DNA of 63,350 nucleotides, the filler included, from Raja brachyura (lineage: Eukaryota): NCBI GenBank assembly GCA_963514005.1. It is 4 parts of 4 records of this genome, joined end to end, with 100 filler letters (N's around TTAATTAATTAA, not from the genome) between each part and the next. Parts side by side here need not be neighbours in the genome. Positions count along the whole stretch, not along the records: positions 1 to 27,092 come from OY740790.1; 3 more parts are not named here. One strand, 5' to 3'. Under the pieces are notes generated by a model. The model saw only the letters and a program-made list of their open reading frames with translations, was not told where the DNA came from and did no database searches. Positions 666 through 63,089 of this stretch are shown here, in pieces (the first letter of the stretch is position 1; every line of letters begins with the position of its first letter). The translations under genes were made by a program, and so were the position numbers.

Positions 666-1736
666 CTAAAAGAAAAAAAGATATTTGAATTAAGTTTTAT
701 TGTCAGTCAAAGGGCCAGGTCCTTTTAATTTAAATACCATTAAACGAGGAATCCTGCCGATTACCGAAGCACATAGTTAAAACTCCCTGAGAATTACATT
801 TATGAACATGCAAAGCCCTACACAGGAGCATGTGTGTTTTTTACATGTGTAGTAGTGATCCATGCTCAACATTCAAAAAATAACTTTACAATCGCTGTTG
901 TAAACCAATTATTTCATGTTGTTAAACCTGTGCCTTCAATAAAATAAAATCAATAAAATTGATTTTAACACGACTACTAGTAAAAAGTAAAATATAGCAT
1001 TACACCTACTGAATCAAACACTTAAAGCATTGCTTTCACAGAACATGGCTGGTAGTTAAGTTTATCTGAGTTAAAGGATTTTATCTCCTTTTCACTTCTG
1101 GCCATTGACAATTTACTCCACCCATGTCGGAGTTAAACCCCCCCCTCTCCTGCATCTGCCTATAACTTGGCATGCTTAGTCCAGCCCACATCTCTCTTTT
1201 TCAGCTTTCACCCACTTACTCTTATCAGTCTATTGAAGGATCCCGATCTGTCCATTCCTTCCACATATGCTGCCTGACCTGCTGAGATTCTACAGTAGAT
1301 CGGAGAAGATCGGAGAAGAAAGGCAAGGGGCCATTGTTGGGATATCATGTTGAGTCCAGCAACGGCTTGCCTTTATTTTTTCCCTCCTCAACTGCCCATT
1401 TTAATATTATGTGCCACAGAAATTTTCCAGATAGAATGTAATTGTAGTTTCATGCGCTAGAATGAATCACACTATGTTATCCAATTTCTCCACTATAACT
1501 TACAATTTAAAAATATTTATAGTTATAACAGCATTTATTCTTATTGTGGATAATAAATTCAGATTGATTCAAACTAAGGATTACAATTAAATATTCCCTC
1601 CAATATTTATTTTGAGTAGTTTTGGCAATATACATCTTTTATGCCTTAAGCCATATATTTTATTTTCCATTTACTAAATTCAAGCTACATTAGATTCGAG
1701 TACAAGCAATAATTTCTTAGAACAATATATTATGGA

Positions 1737-3068
1737 CTAGACTAAGTTCACATGGGAGGGCTGGTCCCCCAATGCAATATTCCACATCTCCACCAATTCC
1801 AATATTTCTGGCCAGTGGGGGGGGGGGGGGGGGGGGGGGGTAGGCTTTCTGGAGCGCTAGTATGTGTGTTGTGGATCAAAGGGACTGGTTTCCAGAGGAC
1901 TAGTATGGACATTGTGGGCCGAATGGATTATTGGGCTGGCTGCTCAGTCACTCAGGCCAGGCAGCTCAGTCACTCTAGCCAGGCAGCATTTTAGAACCAA
2001 TAGAGACACTTTTTGCAAGCATTTTAGAACCAATAGAGACACTCTTTCTGCAAGCATTTTAGAACCAATAGAGACACTCTTTCTGCAAGCATTTTAGAAC
2101 CAATAGACACTTTCTGCAAGCATTTTAGAACCAATAGAGACACCTTCTGCAAGCATTTTAGAACCAATAGAGACACTTACTGCAAGCATTTTAGAACCAA
2201 TAGAGACATTTTCTGCAAGCATTTTAGAACCAATAGAGACACTATCTGCAAGCATTTTAGAACCAATAGAGACACTTTCGGCAAGCATTTTAGAACCAAT
2301 AGACACTTTCTGCGAGCATTTTAGAACCAATAGACACTTTCTGCGAGCATTTTAGAACCAAAAGAGACACTTTCTGCAAGGATTTTAGAACCAATAGACA
2401 CTTTCTGCAAGCATTTTAGAACCAATAGAGACACTTTCTGCAAGCATTTTAGAACCAATAGACACTATTTGCAAGCATTTTAGAACCAATAGACACTCTC
2501 TGCAAGCATTTTGTAACCAATAGAGACACTCTTCCTGCAACCATTTTAGAACCAATAGAGACACTCTTTCTGTAAGCATTTAGAACCAAGAGACACTCTT
2601 TCTGCAACCATTTTTGAACCAATAGAGACACTTTTTGCAACCATTTTAGAACCAATAGACACCTTTTGCAAGCATTTTAGAACCAGTAGAGACACTTTTT
2701 GCAAGCATTTATAGAACCACATTAAGGGCACTCACAGTAGACATGTGTTCAGTGCTATTCAGAACTCAGAGAGACGTGACCCTCTGGCTTCCTCCATTTT
2801 GCAGAGACTGAGTGAGGCACACCACTTCCTGGTTTTATAGTCCTTCCTCCTCCCTCCAGCAGGGGCAGCAGAGAGAATGGCGAATTTAAAAAAAAACATT
2901 AATATCTCTCTGATTTTTCATCAATGGGAAAAATCCTCTGGTCCAGGAAGGCGGAGGGGGGCTCTGAGCGAGCTGGCCAAAAATAACGGCCGTAGGTGCC
3001 GGCGTTCTCTCGGAAATCACACCACAGTGAACCAAAAGCGGTCAAGATCAGACTTTTAGTAATATAGA
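1737..3068 (-). mobile_element. Non-autonomous Helitron-like element
   Basis: Minus strand starts TCTATATTACTAAAAGTC and ends TTAGTCTAG. It sits between host A and T with no TSD, the classic Helitron signature. Confidence 0.75.
1985..2720. repeat. Minisatellite, ~31-35 bp unit (gcaagcattttagaaccaatagagacactttct), inside the Helitron
   Basis: About 20 directly visible tandem copies. They explain the repetitive ORFs 2094-2731. Confidence 0.95.
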
Positions 3069-6747: not shown

Positions 6748-7233
6748 TCAAAGTCAGCCATTCAAAGTCAAATTTATCAGTATAACACCATGATTAAACA
6801 TAATCAGATGACAGCTCAACAGACCTAACCACACTCCTTGCCAATTATGTAGAGGAATATCTGATTTTCACCTTAACTTTCTATTCCTTTCTAGTTTCAC
6901 ACCTTCCTTATCAAGAATCCATTGGCTTTAAAAAATATTCAAAGCTATTGCTACTATTATGGAATTGAGTTCCAATCCCGACAAACCAGATATAAGGAAG
7001 TTGACTTGAGATCCGTTTTATATGGGAAACCTCTTATTTTCATACTTTCATAGATTCTCTTACAAGTAATATCTGTCTCACATCAACCCTTTCATGATCC
7101 CAGAGGATCTTGTATGTTCCAATCAAATCCCCAATGTTCCAATCCAGTCACCTAAACTCCTACAGATACAATCAAACATTGTCCAAGCAGTCCTCATAAG
7201 GGCTTATCCATCCATTCCGGGCACCCTCTGCTA

Positions 7234-7404
<171 letters not shown>

Positions 7405-8136: not shown

Positions 8137-9240
8137 ATAGACCAACACAAAGTGGTGCATAATTGTGAAGTGGAAGGAAAATGATACATGGTTTCCAAAT
8201 TTTATTACAAAAAAAATGGAAAAGTGTGGCGTGCAAAAATATTCAGCCCCCGAGTCAATACTTTGTAGAACCACCTTTTGCTGCAATTACAGCTGCAAGT
8301 CTTTTGGGGTATGTCTCTACCAGCTTTGCACATCTAGAGACTGACATTTTTGCCCATTCTTCTTTGCAAAATAGCTCAAGCTCAGTGAGATTGGATTGAG
8401 AGTGTCTGTGAACAGCAATTTTCAAGTTTTGCAAGAGATTCTCAATTGGATTTAGGTCTGGACTTTGACTGGGCCAATCTAACACATGAATATGCTTTGA
8501 TCTAAACCATTCCATTGTAGCTCCGGCTGTATGTTTAAGGTCGCTGTCCTGCTGGAAGGTGAACCTTCGCCCCAGTCTCAAATCTTTTGCAGACTCTAAC
8601 AGGTTTTCTTCCAAGATCGCCTTGTATTTGGCTCCATCCATCTTCTCATCAACTCTGACCAGCTTCCCTGTCCCTGCTGAAGAAAAGCATCCCCACAGCA
8701 TGATGCTGCCACCATCATGTTTCACAGTGGGGATGGTGTGTTCAGGTGATGTGCAGTGTTAGTTTTCCACCACACATAGCGTTTTGCATTTAGGCCAAAA
8801 ACTTCAATTTTGGTCTCATCAGACCAGAGCACCTTCCTCCACATGTTTGCTGTGTCCCCACACATGGCTTGTGGCAAACTGCAAAAGGGACTATTCTATT
8901 TTCGGATGATGGATTGAACAGTGCTCCGTGAGATGTTCAAAGCTTGGGATATTTTTTTATAACCTAATCCTGCTTTAAACCTCCACAACTTTATCCCTGA
9001 CCTGTCTGGTGTGTTCCTTGTGCTTCATGATGCTGTTTGTTCACTAATGTTCTCTAACAAACCTCTGAGGCCTTCACTGAACAGCTGTATTATACTGAGA
9101 TTAGATTACACACAAGTGGACTCTATTTACTAATTAGGTGACTTCTGAAGGCAATTGGTTAGACTGGATTTTATTTAGATGTATCAGAGTAAAGGGGGCT
9201 GAATACATTCGCACGCCAAACTTTTCAGTTTTTTATTTGG
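8137..9240 (-). mobile_element. Tc1-like DNA transposon remnant with DDE transposase C-terminus (ORF 8255..8725)
   Basis: KHDGGSIMLWGCFS, FQQDSDLKHT and WPSQSPDLNPIENL motifs. Inner inverted repeats aaaagtgtggcgtgcaaaaatattcagccccc (~8220) and gggggctgaatacattcgcacgccaaactttt (~9194). Outer ends are missing. Confidence 0.9.
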
Positions 9241-9830: not shown

Positions 9831-10746
9831 TATAAGTAAAAAGATAATAAATAAAGTAGCTATATGGATCAACAATACTTGATGGTAGGGTTAGAACCAA
9901 TGGGAAATCATCTAGATTGAGGTGGGTCACAGTTTTTAGCCTACTCAATGGTAAACTGCATCTATTTTAATGGAAAATAAAAGTGGGGAGAAAGGAAATT
10001 TGGTAACCAAACAAATGGGTTGATAAAACATCCTCTTAGGAGCTTCAAGTAATTGAAGAATACAAAAAAAGATAATAAAATTGCATCCTTTCAAAAATAT
10101 TTTTCAAACTTTCTGGCATTGGGTGCATTAATTTTTCGGAAGTCTGTAAGGAAGTAGGTCATATGGAGTTGCATTTTGGGAGATATGTAATGTAGACAAT
10201 GATACACAGATACATTGAAGATAATTAGAAATTCCGGCCAGCTCACCTGCCTCTATCAATTCCTTCAAATCCACAGTATGGTGCCAGGTTTAAAGCAAGA
10301 CATTTTGTGGAATTAGAGGATCTCAATCTGCAGTGTCATGTAACTTAACTGAGCACTTCTGTAAACAACTAATATTGATCACCAATGAACCTAGCTGCAA
10401 AATATATATGTCGAATAGTAAAGTGAGGCAGGTCTGTTAAGCCAATTGGCAAGGAATATACTCATACACAGAAAAAATGAGCCTGTTACTGGAGCACTGG
10501 CAGTGCCTTAAGGAGAAAAGAGAATATAATGAAAATAAAATCAAGAAGAAAGTGTAACGATCATTTTCCATCATAAGATAAAAATAAATTTTAAAAAGTG
10601 GTGTCAATTAACTTTAAACATTTCCAAACCTATAAATTATGTATTAAAAATGAATTCATAGCTATTTTGGCACAGCATTTCTCATTGCCTGATCCCGTGT
10701 TTTGTATTCATTCTGAAATCAAGTACTTATGAATTGATTTACCTTG

Positions 10747-10973
10747 TGTTAAAGAAGGAACTGTAGATGCTGGAGAATCGAGGGTTACACAAAAAGCTGG
10801 AGAAACTCAGCGGGTGCAGCAGCATCTAAGGAGCGAAGGAGATAGGCGACGTTTCGGGTCGAGACCCTTCTTCAGGTCTGAAGAAGGGTCTCGACCCGAA
10901 ACGTCGCCTATCTCCTTCGCTCCTTAGATGCTGCTGCACCCGCTGAGTTTCTCCAGCTTTTTGTGTAACCCCC
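10747..10973. mobile_element. Palindromic non-autonomous Penelope-derived insertion with 15-bp TSD
   Basis: Perfect 94-bp inverted arms (10782-10875 / 10878-10971). Direct repeat aattgatttaccttg at 10732-10746 and 10974-10988. Confidence 0.85.
10874..10909 (+). ncRNA. Minimal type I hammerhead ribozyme motif
   Basis: aggt-CTGAAGA-a-gggt(ctcg)accc-GAAAC-GTC-gcct. Conserved CUGANGA/GAAA core, 4-bp helix II, loopless palindromic helix III (ACGT), GUC triplet at 10903-10905, helix I aggt/gcct. The same core is read on the minus strand. Confidence 0.6.
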
Positions 10974-12219
10974 AATTGATTTACCTTGATTTATAACTGA
11001 GATCAAAACTGATAGTGTGCCATTTATACCAAATAATGAATTCCAATAATTTCTAGAAATTTAAATCTGCAGTCATGTGTAAAAATGATTATTCATGCAA
11101 ATAGTTGCAGCCTAGTTGCTACACTAACAAATTATGTCAAACAAAATATGCCTCATTTACATGTGCTTATTGTCATTAGTCACTGATTTAAAAGGCAAGT
11201 ATTTAGACGTTGAGGCTGTAGTGAAGAAGCAGTGATATTCCTTCAAACAATTCCCATACTGAGTATCAGATACCACAATCCTAAACTGAACCCGCTGTGT
11301 CTAGACTCCCTGGCACCTGACTTCACTTATTTACCAGGAATCAGAGGCTTTCACTGCTCTCCCCACATTCTCACACCTTCTCCTTCAACATCTTTGAATG
11401 ATTACAATGCAAAAAAAAATGTTTTCTTCTGGAATCACTGTTCTGACCAATCACTCTGGGGTTCACAGTCTGATCAATTAGCTTATTTATTTCAGCAGAT
11501 AACTTCAAAGTGCAACGGGTATGATCTGAGGAAACCTTCAGCGGCATTCAATTAGTGGAAGAGACAGTACATATCAAAGGGAGCCATCAAAACAATGGCT
11601 TTACAAAATCCATGAACTCAAATCAAAGCATGTTGCCCAATCGGTTTAAAACAATCATTACATCATCCCGCAAGCATCCATTTTCATTGGTTCTGTATTA
11701 CAGTAATTCTATGGCTCCTTTGCACCAAGAATCAAATGACTTTTAAGAAGCAGGAATCAATTCATAATCCTTGGTCTTAACAATACTTTTCCCCTGATTA
11801 GCTCGCCACTAACTTCCTATTTTACATCTGAGCTGATGTGAGGAAGAGGAAATCCAAAAACCCTGACCCAGAGACTTACCAGAAGAAATGTGATCAGTAG
11901 TCTTAATGAAGACCATAGCTTAGTAACATCCTCACAACCTGATTAAGGATAGGAAAATCTTCAAAGCTGGATCTCAATTTAAAGCCACAATGCCTCAAAA
12001 CTTCTGATCTTCTCTCTGACATTTTAAATGGCAGCAAGCGTGGCACATTTCGACCTGTCATTAACTCTGGATCAACTCAAAATGTCAACGTATTCCTTCA
12101 GGACAAATAAAACTCCTGGGTTTGTCAGTACTGTTATACTTGGCTATGTGGGACTGGATTGAACTCAACCTGCGAGACGTGCACAGTGTGCGAGTCCATT
12201 GGCAATACGTCAGAATATG

Positions 12220-12500: not shown

Positions 12501-13351
12501 ACAACCCTACCTCAGCAATGACCTACCTTGGCATTTTTATGACACTGGCTTCCACCATTATGGTCTAGTTACCTGGTATAGTTAAATGTACAGTAAACAA
12601 TAATACAATAAATTGTTTGTTGTGAAGAAGAAAAGTCTAAAAAAGGGTCTCAACCCAAAACATCACCCATTCCTACTATCCAGCATTTTGTGTCTACCAT
12701 TGATGTAAACCAGCATCTGCTGTTCCTTCCTACACAAATTATTTGTTGTGTTGTTGCACTGATGTACCTGTAATGCTGCAGCAAGTATGAATTTCAATGT
12801 TCCGTTCTCGATGCATTAAACACTGGACATACGTATTATGGCTGTCGTTTTAAATCAGGTGTGGACCTCGGACCATAGGAGTGAGAGGTTGAAGATGTCC
12901 ACGAAAACTCCAGCCAGTTTGTCCACACAGGTTTTAATATGGCGGCCAGGCACATCATCAGGGTCAGATGTTTTGAGGGTTTACCCACATGTAGGATCTT
13001 TTAACATTGGCCTTGGATTCTGAGATTAGTGTTGTCGGGGGTTGTTAAGCCTAAGAAGCACATTATTGTTATTCCCTTCCAAGTGAGCAGAGCTTGTCTA
13101 GGAGGAGTAATACGTTGCTGTGGCTTGAGCTACTTGGCTCCACCTTATTGGAAATAAACATGTGCAAGCCTTGCCATAGTTGACAAATGTTTGTCTAATC
13201 CTCCAGTTTAGTCAAAAAGTGTCTCTTCATTTTCTCAATATCATTCTCAAAGTTGTACCCAGTGACATTACTATGATCAGCCTTGATCATATTGAATGGC
13301 GGTGCTGGCTCGAAGGGCTGAATGGCCTCCTCCTGCACCTATTTTCTATGT

Positions 13352-13539: not shown

Positions 13540-13625
13540 TAAATCTCAACTGTCCATTATACAACAGTTTAATTGTCAATAACCAATCTAATTTTAAAGA
13601 GTCATTTACAAGTTGATGTAATTTA

Positions 13626-13772
<147 letters not shown>

Positions 13773-27092: not shown

Positions 27093-27192
27093 NNNNNNNN
27101 NNNNNNNNNNNNNNNNNNNNNNNNNNNNNNNNNNNNTTAATTAATTAANNNNNNNNNNNNNNNNNNNNNNNNNNNNNNNNNNNNNNNNNNNN
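27093..27192. other. Artificial spacer N44-TTAATTAATTAA-N44
   Basis: Exactly 100 bp, six-frame stop linker, occurs three times in the window. Confidence 0.97.
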
Positions 27193-34833: not shown

Positions 34834-36129
34834 CTGCCTCAGAACAAAATGTAACCGGCCAGCAAATTTTAAAAAAAGGGCACGTTAGAAGTTAGAAAGG
34901 GCATATCAGAAGGGCATATATTAAGAAGATATTTTAGTGCTTGTTGTGCTTCACTAATTTATTGTCCACTTTTTAAATTCCTTTTTTATTGCATCTCATC
35001 TGAATGTCTTTCTGGGTTAATAGCGCTGTATGATCACTGGCAACTCTACATAACCGTACACCATTCTATTGGACAGATTAGCAGCCTGATAAGACCCTCG
35101 TTTGTAAATGGGCATTTAGAGATGGTCTTCACAAGGAAAATATTTTGGAATCCATCTGCACCTGCACATTTAAATATGCTGATTCTTTCAAATAAATCTC
35201 TATAGGTGAATCATTGATTTAACCACATCCTGACAATGAGCAGTTGTTTAAGGTGCAGAAGTACTGAAATCATGCCTTAGTTATGTCCTTGTGACGCACA
35301 CGTTCTAGAGTAACAACCACAGCCTTGGCAAGCAATGAAAATACAACACATACTGCAACTGTGGACAAGAGATAAAATCCTATTTGACCACATTCTTGCA
35401 GGATGACTACTATTACCCAGCTATATGGAACTAGCATCGCACAGGTACTAATAACATTTAAAAAAACATTCACAAATCAGCACAATGCTAAAAGGAGTCA
35501 TTTATGCAATCGGAATGGTTGAGACTTGTAAAATGCAATGTAAACCAACAGGTGTGTAAGCCATTCATACAACACATATTATCAAAATACAGACAGATAC
35601 CAAATCTATCCAGAAAGAATCTCCTGGCTCTGAAGTTTCACATCGTTTCTCCTATTACCATACCAAACATTGTGGAGCACAGAAAATCTTACCTGCCCTT
35701 TCCCTATCTTCCCAGTCAAAGTGCCCACAGATTAAAGCTGGATTGGATGCACCACCATTATAAACATAAATTAGTAGAAACACTCAGCATAGATTTTTGA
35801 CAAAGTCCTGCACCAAATGCTGGTCCGGAAGGTTAAAGCATAAGATACACAAGAGAATGCAGATGCTGGAATTTGCAGCAACAGACTACTGGAAAAACTG
35901 AAATGGTCAAGCAGCATCTGTAGTGGGGGGTGGCCGTTGGTACTGTCAACATTTCAGGTACCATTGAAGGGTTTTGACCGGAAGATTCCATCCTCACCAC
36001 ACAGATGCTCTCAAGTTCCTCCAGTAGATTGCTTGCAGGATTTGAAGTATGTTGGCAATCCAAAATTAGCTTGTTGATAGCAGTCAAAGGGTAGTGGTGG
36101 TGGAGCATTTTTCTGATGCAGAGTCTGTA

Positions 36130-37320
36130 AATATTGATTTGCAGCAAGGTTTGGTGCATAAGAATGTAGGTGGTCTGATTTGTAAGTTTGCCAATGGCAT
36201 GAAAATAGGTGGAGTTGTATATTGTGAAGAAGGTTGAATAAGGTTACAGAGGGGGGTAGATCAGCTGGAAAATTAGACAAGAGTGATGGCAGGGAATTTA
36301 ATCCAGCAAAGTGGAAGGTAAATGCACTTTGGGACATCAAATACTGGCAGTACATGCACAATAAATCACAAAGACCTCAGGAGCGTTGAGGTACGGAGAC
36401 CTTAGAGTGAAAGTCCATAGCTACCTGAAAATGGTGTCACTGTTGGATAGGGTAGGGTAGAATGCACATGGTATGCTTGCCTTCGTCGGCCAGGCCACTG
36501 AGTATGTGAGTTGCACTGTCATGTTGCAATGGCACAAAACCTTGGTTAGGATGCACTTGGAATATTGTATATAGTTTTGATCACCAGGAAGGACCCTAAA
36601 GAAAGAACATTGTAACATTTTTTCAAAAGAGTGCCAAAGAGATTCACCAGGATGTTTCCAGGAATGGAGTGAGCCTTGGTTAAAGGGAGACATTGGTTAG
36701 GCTGGGAGATTACAAATGCTGGAATCTGTAGCAATAAAAGGTACCCATTTGAGGAATTAAGCAGGTCCGGCAACAATTATGGTGAGAAATGGGCAGACAA
36801 CATTTTGGGTCAAGATTCTTTACCTAGACAGTCAAGATGAAGGATTTTGATCTGAAAGTCAACTGTCCATTCCTCTTTCCAAGTGTTGCCTGACTCACTG
36901 AATTCCTGGGTTGGCTGGATTGTTCTCACTGAAGCACAGGAGCGGTGACTTTATAGAGGTTTTTTAAATTATGAGGTGCATAAATGGGATATAGTCCTCT
37001 TATTGTCTTTATTCCAGGATGTTGGGAATCTAAAACCAGAGGACACATGTTTATAATGAAAAGGGAGAAAATTAGATCTCAGGGCTAGTTTTTCACACAG
37101 TAACACAGTTAATATAGAACATGCTACTAGAGGAAATGGTCATGGCAAATACAATTACAATGTTTAAAAAGCATTTGAACAGTTACCTGGAATGGAAAGA
37201 GATAAGGGCTATATATCTAGCTTGGGCAAATGGGATTAGCATAGATAAGCACCACAATGAGCGTGGCCCAAAATTGGGCAAAAGGGCCTGTTCTGTGCTG
37301 TGCAACTCCATGAATCTATG
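36130..37320 (+). mobile_element. Old CR1 RT/3' fragment interrupted by a palindromic Penelope-derived repeat (~36705-36905)
   Basis: Degenerate KFANGMKIGG (KFADDTKIGG) and LEYCI.F motifs. The insert has inverted arms around gtcaagatgaagga. Confidence 0.65.
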
Positions 37321-62619: not shown

Positions 62620-63089
62620 CTGATAAGAATATCTACACTGATAGGTCAGACAGCATGGCTAAAGTACGTGGATAGGTGATGTTTTGGATGGGGAACCTTC
62701 TTCAGACTGATTAGAGTTGGGAGGAGAAAGCTGGATTAGACTGGGGCAGGGCAAAGCCTGGTAAATGATAGATAGATAAGGGGCATGGAAAGAGGGAGGG
62801 ACGGGATATAGTGACTATTCGGCAGGATAAAAGAATCCTGGGCCCAGTAGCGTTCAGCATTCGATAACTGGTTGCTTCCATTTAATATTCTTTTTCTTCC
62901 ATAATGCTCTACAAAAACTTTATATCGTATTCCTTTTGAATGTTAATACTATATTATTATCACTTCCCTTTCAGGCATCAAGTCTCAGACTGTTTTAGAA
63001 GAAAATATCTCCTCTTCTGTCTGATTCTTTTACCAATCATCTTAAATTTATGTCCTCGAGTTACCAATCATCATAAATTCATGTCCTCG

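What the first reader, a model, noticed from the sequence alone, without database searches (positions are those of the whole stretch)
10732..10988. Young perfect-palindrome insertion carrying a minimal hammerhead ribozyme core on both strands, inside a KIFAP3 intron
Seen: a 227-bp insert with a perfect 15-bp TSD and two 94-bp arms that are exact reverse complements around a 2-nt spacer. Each strand reads CTGAAGA-a-gggtctcgaccc-GAAACGTC from the centre. Known: Penelope-like elements carry minimal type I hammerheads with a loopless palindromic helix III, thought to cleave as dimers, and often insert with an inverted partial pseudo-LTR. Inference: this is a recently mobile non-autonomous Penelope derivative. 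On the + strand the fold-back junction supplies the 5' side of helix I (aggt/gcct); on the KIFAP3-sense strand helix I is poorer. In any transcript the 94-bp dsRNA stem would compete with ribozyme folding and could be a Dicer/ADAR substrate.
Basis: partly seen in the sequence, partly recalled or inferred. Interest (0 to 1): 0.7.

Follow-up and report, generated by a model that had tools for sequence, protein, structure and literature searches.

The report
Head-to-head Penelope retroelement end stub
This perfect DNA palindrome in an intron is real, but it is most likely an ordinary leftover of a very abundant Penelope-like jumping gene that landed as two short end pieces back to back, and its small self-cutting RNA motif is predicted to be folded shut by the palindrome itself.

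Summary
That is the one-sided 'tail' of Penelope-like elements (PLEs), so the whole is the published inverted-pLTR + tail + TSD layout. The family is very abundant: about 54,000-59,000 contigs were laid per run in four runs. This window holds nine older relatives, two of them decayed head-to-head pairs, and one follows a decayed PLE-type endonuclease motif (not database-confirmed). The insertion's left junction is shared by three organism labels (flanks 0-2.4% apart), so it is not private; arm identity needs no conversion. Any read-through RNA forms a -210 kcal/mol hairpin that buries the ribozyme (penalty 40 kcal/mol). Best mechanism (inferred): both target ends primed cDNA from the element's two reverse-transcription starts, and the two cDNAs joined at a native quasi-palindrome just 5' of the ribozyme core. 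The scan has noted this class on other genomes many times. Ordinary; useful only as material for testing how PLE inversions form.

The parts
10732..10746 (.). Left copy of 15-bp target-site duplication
10747..10781 (-). 35-nt one-sided PLE 'tail' at the outer end of the inverted arm
   Evidence: homologous tail in older copies; summed depth in the tail bin about half that of the next bin in 4 of 4 runs; 30-40 nt tail described in PMC8557442 and PMC11167929
10782..10875 (-). Inverted arm: truncated pseudo-LTR from hammerhead C3 to the tail boundary
10876..10877 (+). 2-nt spacer GT = native helix I positions 2.2 and 2.1 of the direct arm
   Evidence: (loose ends before 10876)
10878..10973 (+). 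Direct arm without tail (94 bp paired plus 2 nt)
10874..10909 (+). Minimal type I hammerhead motif; predicted cut 3' of 10905; predicted unable to fold within the full hairpin
   Evidence: definition in PMC4209133
10844..10879 (-). Same motif on the KIFAP3-sense strand; helix I has a mismatch at pair 2
10974..10988 (.). Right copy of target-site duplication
7231..7404 (-). Stop-to-stop frame holding the downstream KIFAP3 exon (Pfam KAP 415-462)
13623..13772 (-). Stop-to-stop frame holding the upstream KIFAP3 exon (Pfam KAP 377-416)
26550..27090 (-). Older relative with native upstream sequence, preceded by a decayed, frameshifted endonuclease-like stretch (CxxC, then CxxC-GLL-YIG), cut by an assembly gap
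36694..36918 (.). Older head-to-head pair, tail on the left arm, arms 68% alike, TSD-like repeat 10 of 12
35845..36041 (.). Older head-to-head pair, tail on the left arm, arms 57% alike; right arm picked by eye, no clear TSD
12610..12750 (+). Older single copy with tail and internal deletion, starting at the same GTCT boundary, 15-bp TSD (1 mismatch)
40275..40361 (+). Older tail-less single copy with exact 10-bp TSD, beginning about at the ribozyme cut site

Best explanation
The insert is a head-to-head pair of short end pieces of one very abundant repeat, flanked by a 15-bp duplication and with a 35-nt tail on one arm only, most likely left by a single truncated insertion of an endonuclease-bearing Penelope-like retrotransposon, and its hammerhead motif is predicted to be inactive here. 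Shown: anatomy, family abundance, recurrence of the layout, shared junction in three organism labels. Inferred mechanism: the element's GIY-YIG endonuclease nicked both strands 15 nt apart in AT-rich intron DNA; each free 3' end primed antisense cDNA on element RNA, the top strand from the outer RT start (giving the tail) and the bottom strand from the inner start 35 nt upstream (no tail); both cDNAs ran through the uncleaved ribozyme and stopped just 5' of its core, where the native sequence TCAG-T-CTGA is self-complementary and lets two cDNA ends meet; fill-in gave the perfect palindrome and the TSD. The commoner family junction has a 1-nt centre; this copy has one extra G. The stub codes for nothing. 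In KIFAP3 pre-mRNA it would fold into a 94-bp hairpin and be spliced out with the intron. Odds: about 0.9 that it is a PLE inverted-pLTR stub; within that, about 0.6 two-ended priming against 0.3 single-cDNA fold-back.
For: Layout equals the published one: inverted shorter pLTR, 31-bp optional tail, 8-10 bp TSDs, palindromes at head-to-head junctions (PMC3846280); 30-40 bp tail at one end (PMC8557442). In vitro a PLE protein cuts and extends both strands, starts RT at two sites whose spacing is the tail, prefers ATT, uses uncleaved RNA and is modelled as a dimer (PMC11167929); the TSD here and at 12610 begins A(A)ATT (the 40275 TSD does not). All min-HHR features are present, and opposite-strand pairs 100-700 bp apart were already reported (PMC4209133). 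Family size: 53,775-59,299 contigs laid in each of 4 runs; summed depth 1-8 million against 9-12 in the unique flank (not a copy number). 9 of 15 joints shown (689 not shown) join variably truncated inverted arms to 10875-10877; the 1-nt-centre form is in 83-93 contigs per run. Nine older relatives in 63 kb, two as head-to-head pairs with the tail on the same side; reversed-window control 0 hits. CxxC..YIG occurs once in six frames, about 240 nt upstream of a relative; 4 of 60 simulated windows had such a motif anywhere; motif order fits Neptune/Nematis endonucleases (PMC8557442). Hairpin -209.9/-208.0 kcal/mol; opening the core costs 40.5; P(G10.1-C11.1) 4e-20.
Against: No full PLE with RT was seen: no genome is held. 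The endonuclease remnant was not confirmed by any database (Pfam 0 of 3 frames; homologue searches blank; 3 phmmer hits look spurious; PDB 0), and it adjoins an old relative only 63-68% alike in alignment. The two-ended model is extrapolated from a lizard Poseidon protein; that paper does not show inversions in the parts read. PMC3846280 favours self-priming instead. No listed contig spans this copy's own centre without gaps, so its exact centre and arm purity rest on the assembly. In one organism a few fixed junctions have depth above 4,000, which one-off formation does not easily explain.
Confidence: 0.8

Rival explanations
1. Same PLE stub, but made by fold-back: one cDNA, primed at the tail, stops at the quasi-palindrome, folds back and copies itself (self-priming as proposed for rotifer PLEs).
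For: Palindromes at head-to-head junctions were read this way in PMC3846280. It gives identical arms by construction. The arms of the 36.7-kb pair share 11 of 60 non-majority letters, the highest of 36 pairings of old copies.
Against: It does not by itself explain why the second arm stops at the standard tail-less end, also seen in the single copy at 40285-40351. A 4-bp stem with a 1-nt loop is a poor primer. The 35.9-kb pair shows no clear excess (5 of 48; median fraction 0.07). Shared letters also fit two RNAs from one source locus.
Confidence: 0.25
2. The head-to-head composite is itself a MITE-like non-autonomous element that is transcribed and re-inserted as a unit.
For: Some exact junctions have contig depth 4,200-4,500 in run X10 and 0-4.3 in the other three runs for the one joint tabulated across runs (10822 to 10876); the 1-nt-centre palindrome has summed depth 43,600-94,300.
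Against: Left-arm lengths vary widely among joints; microhomology hot spots or tandem arrays give the same signal; depth is not copy number; a -210 kcal/mol hairpin is a poor RT template; the focal 2-nt centre is not shown to recur.
Confidence: 0.12
3. The perfect symmetry is partly artificial (short-read assembly filled the repeat with family-majority sequence) or maintained by arm-to-arm conversion.
For: The window is a gapped assembly (15 N runs). The focal letter is the majority in run X1 at all 23 variable places listed within the insert. If the insertion predates the A/C split, 2.3-2.8 changes are expected (3.2-4.5 with CpG boost) and 1 candidate (10972) is seen.
Against: P(1 or fewer changes) is 0.24-0.33, or 0.06-0.17 with CpG boost. 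Conversion should fix some private changes in both arms and none is seen. Old pairs have decayed to 57-68%. The left junction is in contigs of three organisms.
Confidence: 0.1
4. A host-selected functional RNA (active intronic ribozyme or small-RNA precursor) in KIFAP3.
For: Intact core, sense-strand intronic position, perfect 94-bp stem.
Against: Core integrity is expected from low age. The fold is blocked. Single min-HHRs did not cleave in vitro and dimers only weakly (PMC4209133). Older copies nearby have lost the core (0 of 8 keep both CUGANGA and GAAA).
Confidence: 0.03

Closest known systems
Insertions of EN+ Penelope-like elements with inverted pLTR, one-sided tail and TSD (Adineta Pen2a_Av/Pen2_Av, PMC3846280; general scheme, PMC8557442 Fig. 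2 legend; PMC8969392)
   Same: Head-to-head inverted copy, palindrome at the junction, 31-40 nt tail on one side, TSD.
   Different: No ORF between the repeats, both copies cut back to about 100-130 nt; TSD 15 bp rather than 8-10; junction sits right at the ribozyme core.
Minimal hammerheads (min-HHR) of metazoan PLE pseudo-LTRs (PMC4209133)
   Same: CUGANGA/GAAA core, extra nucleotide between 9 and 10.1, G10.1-C11.1, palindromic 15.2-16.2 with no loop 3, 4-bp helix I; opposite-strand pairs already reported.
   Different: Helix II is 4-5 bp rather than the 7-8 bp of Schistosoma; here the motif is buried in its own antisense.
Poseidon from Anolis carolinensis (PAc), in vitro (PMC11167929)
   Same: Two RT starts that define the tail, both strands cut and extended, AT-rich/ATT target, ribozyme upstream of the RT starts and not needed for insertion.
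   Different: The endonuclease remnant here has an upstream CxxC suggesting Neptune/Nematis rather than Poseidon; no protein of this family was tested.
Non-LTR retrozymes (bioRxiv 10.64898/2026.07.22.740005)
   Same: Non-coding, PLE-pLTR-related, type I hammerhead, present in a chondrichthyan genome of that survey.
   Different: Retrozymes are head-to-tail tandem arrays that allow dimeric folding; this is head-to-head with one ribozyme per strand.

Membership tests
EN+ PLE insertion (inverted pLTR type) | Inverted 5'-truncated copy adjacent head-to-head | tested here: met
   recurs at 35.9 kb and 36.7 kb and in joints
EN+ PLE insertion (inverted pLTR type) | 30-40 nt tail at one end only | tested here: met
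   35 nt, 10747-10781; tail-bin depth about half in 4 of 4 runs
EN+ PLE insertion (inverted pLTR type) | Target-site duplication | tested here: met
   15 bp exact; relatives 15 bp (1 mismatch) and 10 bp. No empty site was seen.
EN+ PLE insertion (inverted pLTR type) | Repeat adjoins a C-terminal GIY-YIG endonuclease with CxxC before YIG | tested here: inconclusive
   Motifs in the right order upstream of an old relative; no database confirmation
EN+ PLE insertion (inverted pLTR type) | Parent element with telomerase-like RT | not testable with these tools
   No genome held; none in window by motif scan
Metazoan min-HHR (type I) | Core CUGANGA and GAAA, NUH site | tested here: met
Metazoan min-HHR (type I) | Extra nucleotide between 9 and 10.1; G10.1-C11.1; palindromic loopless helix III | tested here: met
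   A10885; G10886-C10897; ACGU
Metazoan min-HHR (type I) | Helix II covariation in the family | tested here: inconclusive
   2 of 8 old copies keep 4 pairs with G-C to A-U at pair 3, 1 keeps them unchanged, 5 break one or more; gapless placement, few decayed copies
Metazoan min-HHR (type I) | Self-cleavage (as dimer) | not testable with these tools
   A double-hammerhead pairing is possible on paper (0 crossings) but is not the dimer MFE (-12.7 without helix I against -26.3); blocked in the full insert
Non-LTR retrozyme | Head-to-tail tandem units each with a hammerhead | tested here: not met
   Head-to-head; one ribozyme per strand
MITE-like non-autonomous element | Many dispersed copies of the same composite with different TSDs | tested here: inconclusive
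   High-depth fixed junctions in one run, variable junctions overall; no genome to count

The most novel reading that the evidence does not exclude
In these genomes head-to-head PLE stubs are not only dead ends: some composites with a fixed junction are re-copied as two-way, MITE-like passengers of the PLE machinery, and the junction hot spot is set by a quasi-palindrome (possibly also a splice acceptor, as in Drosophila Penelope) built into helix I of the ribozyme; thousands of barely mutated palindromes would then record, locus by locus, whether a dimeric PLE enzyme primes both target ends on two RNAs.
Probability: 0.15. Interest if true: 0.55.

Novelty: new member of a known kind. Interest (0 to 1): 0.2.

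Why it matters
As a single locus it matters little: it is one of very many PLE stubs. Its value is as clean material for an open question that PMC8557442 names: how PLEs form their tandem/inverted structures and tail. The geometry here (tail on one arm, none on the other, 15-bp TSD, junction at a native quasi-palindrome) maps directly on the two RT starts and two-strand extension seen in vitro, and a family census would separate two-ended priming from fold-back. Practically, such stubs mimic miRNA hairpins (8 sub-threshold Rfam miRNA rows) and 'ribozymes on both strands', so annotators should mask them.

Tried and rejected
Own genome not held, so no copy count, TSD census or full-length parent. 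Rfam: no hammerhead model hit the region at E up to 10 or the window at gathering; miRNA hits rejected as hairpin artefacts. Pattern scans of metagenome, viral (38) and prokaryote (39) contigs: 0 hits, as expected for an animal repeat. Sequencing runs: no RNA holder listed; 4 of 21 runs were laid. The right flank and organism D's flanks were patchily covered, which proves nothing; a second read-laying gave no data, so the state of the site in organisms D and E and any RNA evidence remain open. Endonuclease remnant: Pfam, homologue, representative and PDB searches gave nothing usable; the three phmmer hits are multi-stretch matches to long proteins whose matched parts do not resemble a nuclease. 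Arm-to-arm conversion considered and not required. The idea that junctions sit at the ribozyme cut site was rejected: they cluster about 30 nt upstream; only one old copy (40285) begins near the cut. The paper on dimer cleavage of PLE hammerheads (recalled as Lunse et al., RNA Biology) is not held and is not used. Five literature searches found no paper on this family in sharks or rays; the library lacks Repbase/Dfam and most subscription journals, so this is no claim of novelty. Supplementary figures of PMC11167929 and PMC4209133 (tail ends, vertebrate min-HHR alignments) could bear on the match and were not readable or not opened (one search gave labels only).

Full report
1. Observation. 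The anatomy is exactly as stated: a 15-bp direct repeat at 10732-10746 and 10974-10988, a 227-bp insert, and two 94-bp arms that are exact reverse complements around GT at 10876-10877. The 15-mer occurs only these 2 times in the window. Pfam KAP hits on either side (2 of 5 peptides scanned; profile 377-416 and 415-462) put the site in a roughly 6.2-kb intron of a minus-strand KIFAP3-type gene. No call names the organism; that the family belongs to sharks, skates or rays is my recall, echoed by unchecked notes of this scan.

2. The insert is not symmetric. The left, minus-strand unit runs 35 nt further (10747-10781). That extension is homologous to the 3' ends of older copies in the window, and in contigs of four runs the bin covering it has about half the summed depth of the next bin (1.07 vs 2.21, 1.19 vs 2.46, 1.01 vs 2.13, 1.79 vs 3.32 million; the bin includes 6 nt of TSD). 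An optional 30-40 nt tail at one end, an inverted truncated copy and a TSD are the described signature of endonuclease-bearing PLE insertions (PMC8557442, passages; PMC3846280, passages; PMC8969392, passages).

3. The family. Laying 4 of 21 listed runs placed 53,775, 55,252, 54,019 and 59,299 contigs, with summed depth of 1-8 million over the element against 9-12 in the unique left flank; the tool warns that this is no copy number, but the family is plainly huge. In the window, a search with the focal unit alone finds 7 older copies at E below 0.1; a family profile adds the partner at 36836 (E 1e-5, not in the model; reversed-window control 0 hits); the arm at 35960 was picked by eye. That makes nine older relatives: five single copies and two head-to-head pairs, both with the tail on the left arm and arms decayed to 57% and 68% identity. 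Two single copies have TSDs of 15 bp (1 mismatch) and 10 bp. In the contigs, 9 of 15 joints shown (689 not shown) join inverted arms of varied length to 10875-10877; a centre one base shorter than the focal one is in 83-93 contigs per run; and about 500 contigs per run stop matching before 10876 with a weak consensus ending ATCA. The native context is thus ATCA-GT-CTGA (also 3 of 8 older copies), which holds the quasi-palindrome TCAG-T-CTGA.

4. Link to a PLE protein. The old copy at 26677(-) is preceded by a frameshifted stretch with, in order, a CxxC-P motif, CxxC-GLL-YIG and a downstream His. PLE endonucleases carry two cysteines between GIY and YIG, and Neptune/Nematis an upstream CX2-5CxxC (PMC8557442). 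CxxC..YIG occurs once in the window's six frames; 4 of 60 Markov-simulated windows had it anywhere. No database confirmed it, so this is supportive, not proof. No RT was seen.

5. The ribozyme. Each strand has CUGAAGA, an extra A, a 4-bp helix II closed by G10.1-C11.1, GAA, the palindrome ACGU and C17: all features of the min-HHR defined in PMC4209133 (parts 1-2 of 4 read), which also reports opposite-strand pairs 100-700 bp apart, no cleavage of a single motif and weak cleavage of dimers. The isolated + strand motif folds with helices I and II (-8.9 kcal/mol), but in the insert the hairpin is -209.9 (+) and -208.0 (-), opening the core costs 40.5 kcal/mol and P(G10.1-C11.1) is 4e-20. Because the antisense arm is transcribed first, no kinetic window is likely (inference). 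Each strand has only one motif, so the dimer would need a second molecule. Helix II shows a compensatory G-C to A-U change in 2 of 8 old copies, is unchanged in 1 and broken in 5; none of the 8 keeps both core boxes. No non-CpG core letter is among the 24 variant rows listed for the insert, a weak sign of selection on source elements, confounded by the 88% filter.

6. Age. The unique left-flank contigs of organisms A, B and C (0 of 373, 2 of 368, 9 of 369 letters different) each run 21-26 nt into the insert and end there, so the insertion is shared, not private; run X1 may be the assembly's own sample; D was not resolved. In X1 the focal letter is the majority at all 23 variable places listed, so the copy is close to its subfamily's majority sequence. 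With 2.3-2.8 changes expected per lineage and one candidate seen (10972), P is 0.24-0.33, or 0.06-0.17 with a 5-10-fold CpG boost. Conversion is not needed; assembly smoothing is not excluded.

7. Mechanism. Both arms are antisense cDNA if read from their own target 3' end. The Anolis PLE protein cuts and extends both strands, starts RT at two sites whose spacing equals the tail, prefers ATT and uses uncleaved RNA (PMC11167929, parts 1-2 of 4 read). Applying this: a 15-nt staggered cut; top strand primed at the outer start (tail), bottom strand at the inner start (no tail); both cDNAs pass the ribozyme and meet at the self-complementary sequence 5' of its core; repair gives palindrome and TSD. 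This is inference. Fold-back self-priming (PMC3846280) is the main rival; re-mobilised composites are a minor one, hinted by fixed junctions with depth above 4,000 in one organism.

8. Comparison and verdict. It works like, and on the tested structural features is, an EN+ PLE inverted-pLTR insertion; the parent ORF is not shown. It is not a retrozyme (bioRxiv 10.64898/2026.07.22.740005, parts 1-2 of 5 read), which are head-to-tail arrays. My reading was set before I looked at the scan's notes; these list the same class in other genomes 9 times and are not independent support. New member of a known kind; interest 0.2.

Noticed in passing
window 8255-9024 (-): Decayed Tc1/mariner transposase in the same intron; one frame matches Pfam DDE_3 (E 3.6e-9).
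   Followed up: partly
window 26700-27090 (-): Frameshifted remnant with CxxC and CxxC-GLL-YIG motifs directly upstream of an old copy of the repeat; likely a Neptune-type PLE endonuclease, cut by an assembly gap.
   Followed up: partly
window 40275-40361: Old single copy with exact 10-bp TSD begins about at the predicted ribozyme cut site, a single hint that cleaved RNA can be a template.
   Followed up: partly
window 1205-1232, 26677-26700 (-), 62708-62730 (-): Native sequence upstream of the ribozyme core is pyrimidine-rich and ends in CAG, like a 3' splice site at helix I; PMC4209133 reports an intron end at the 5' end of helix I in Drosophila Penelope.
   Followed up: no
run X10, joints 10822-10876 and 10785-10874/10879: Fixed inverted-junction variants with contig depth 1,300-4,500 in organism D: possible amplified composites or a tandem array.
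   Followed up: no
window 1985-2730: Tandem array of about 21 copies of a 31-35 nt unit.
   Followed up: no
window 27093-27192, 52379-52478, 61479-61578: Assembly gap markers (44 N, a 12-nt TTAA linker, 44 N); with 9 other N runs they show a gapped assembly and give false repeat hits.
   Followed up: no
window 53480-60560: Large C/T-rich low-complexity region with 150-200 nt units repeated every 0.5-4 kb and a 38-nt minisatellite (55454-55871, 59623-59850).
   Followed up: no
window 24625-24924 and 38591-38890: Two copies of another repeat, 91% alike over 300 nt, probably a LINE fragment (inference).
   Followed up: no
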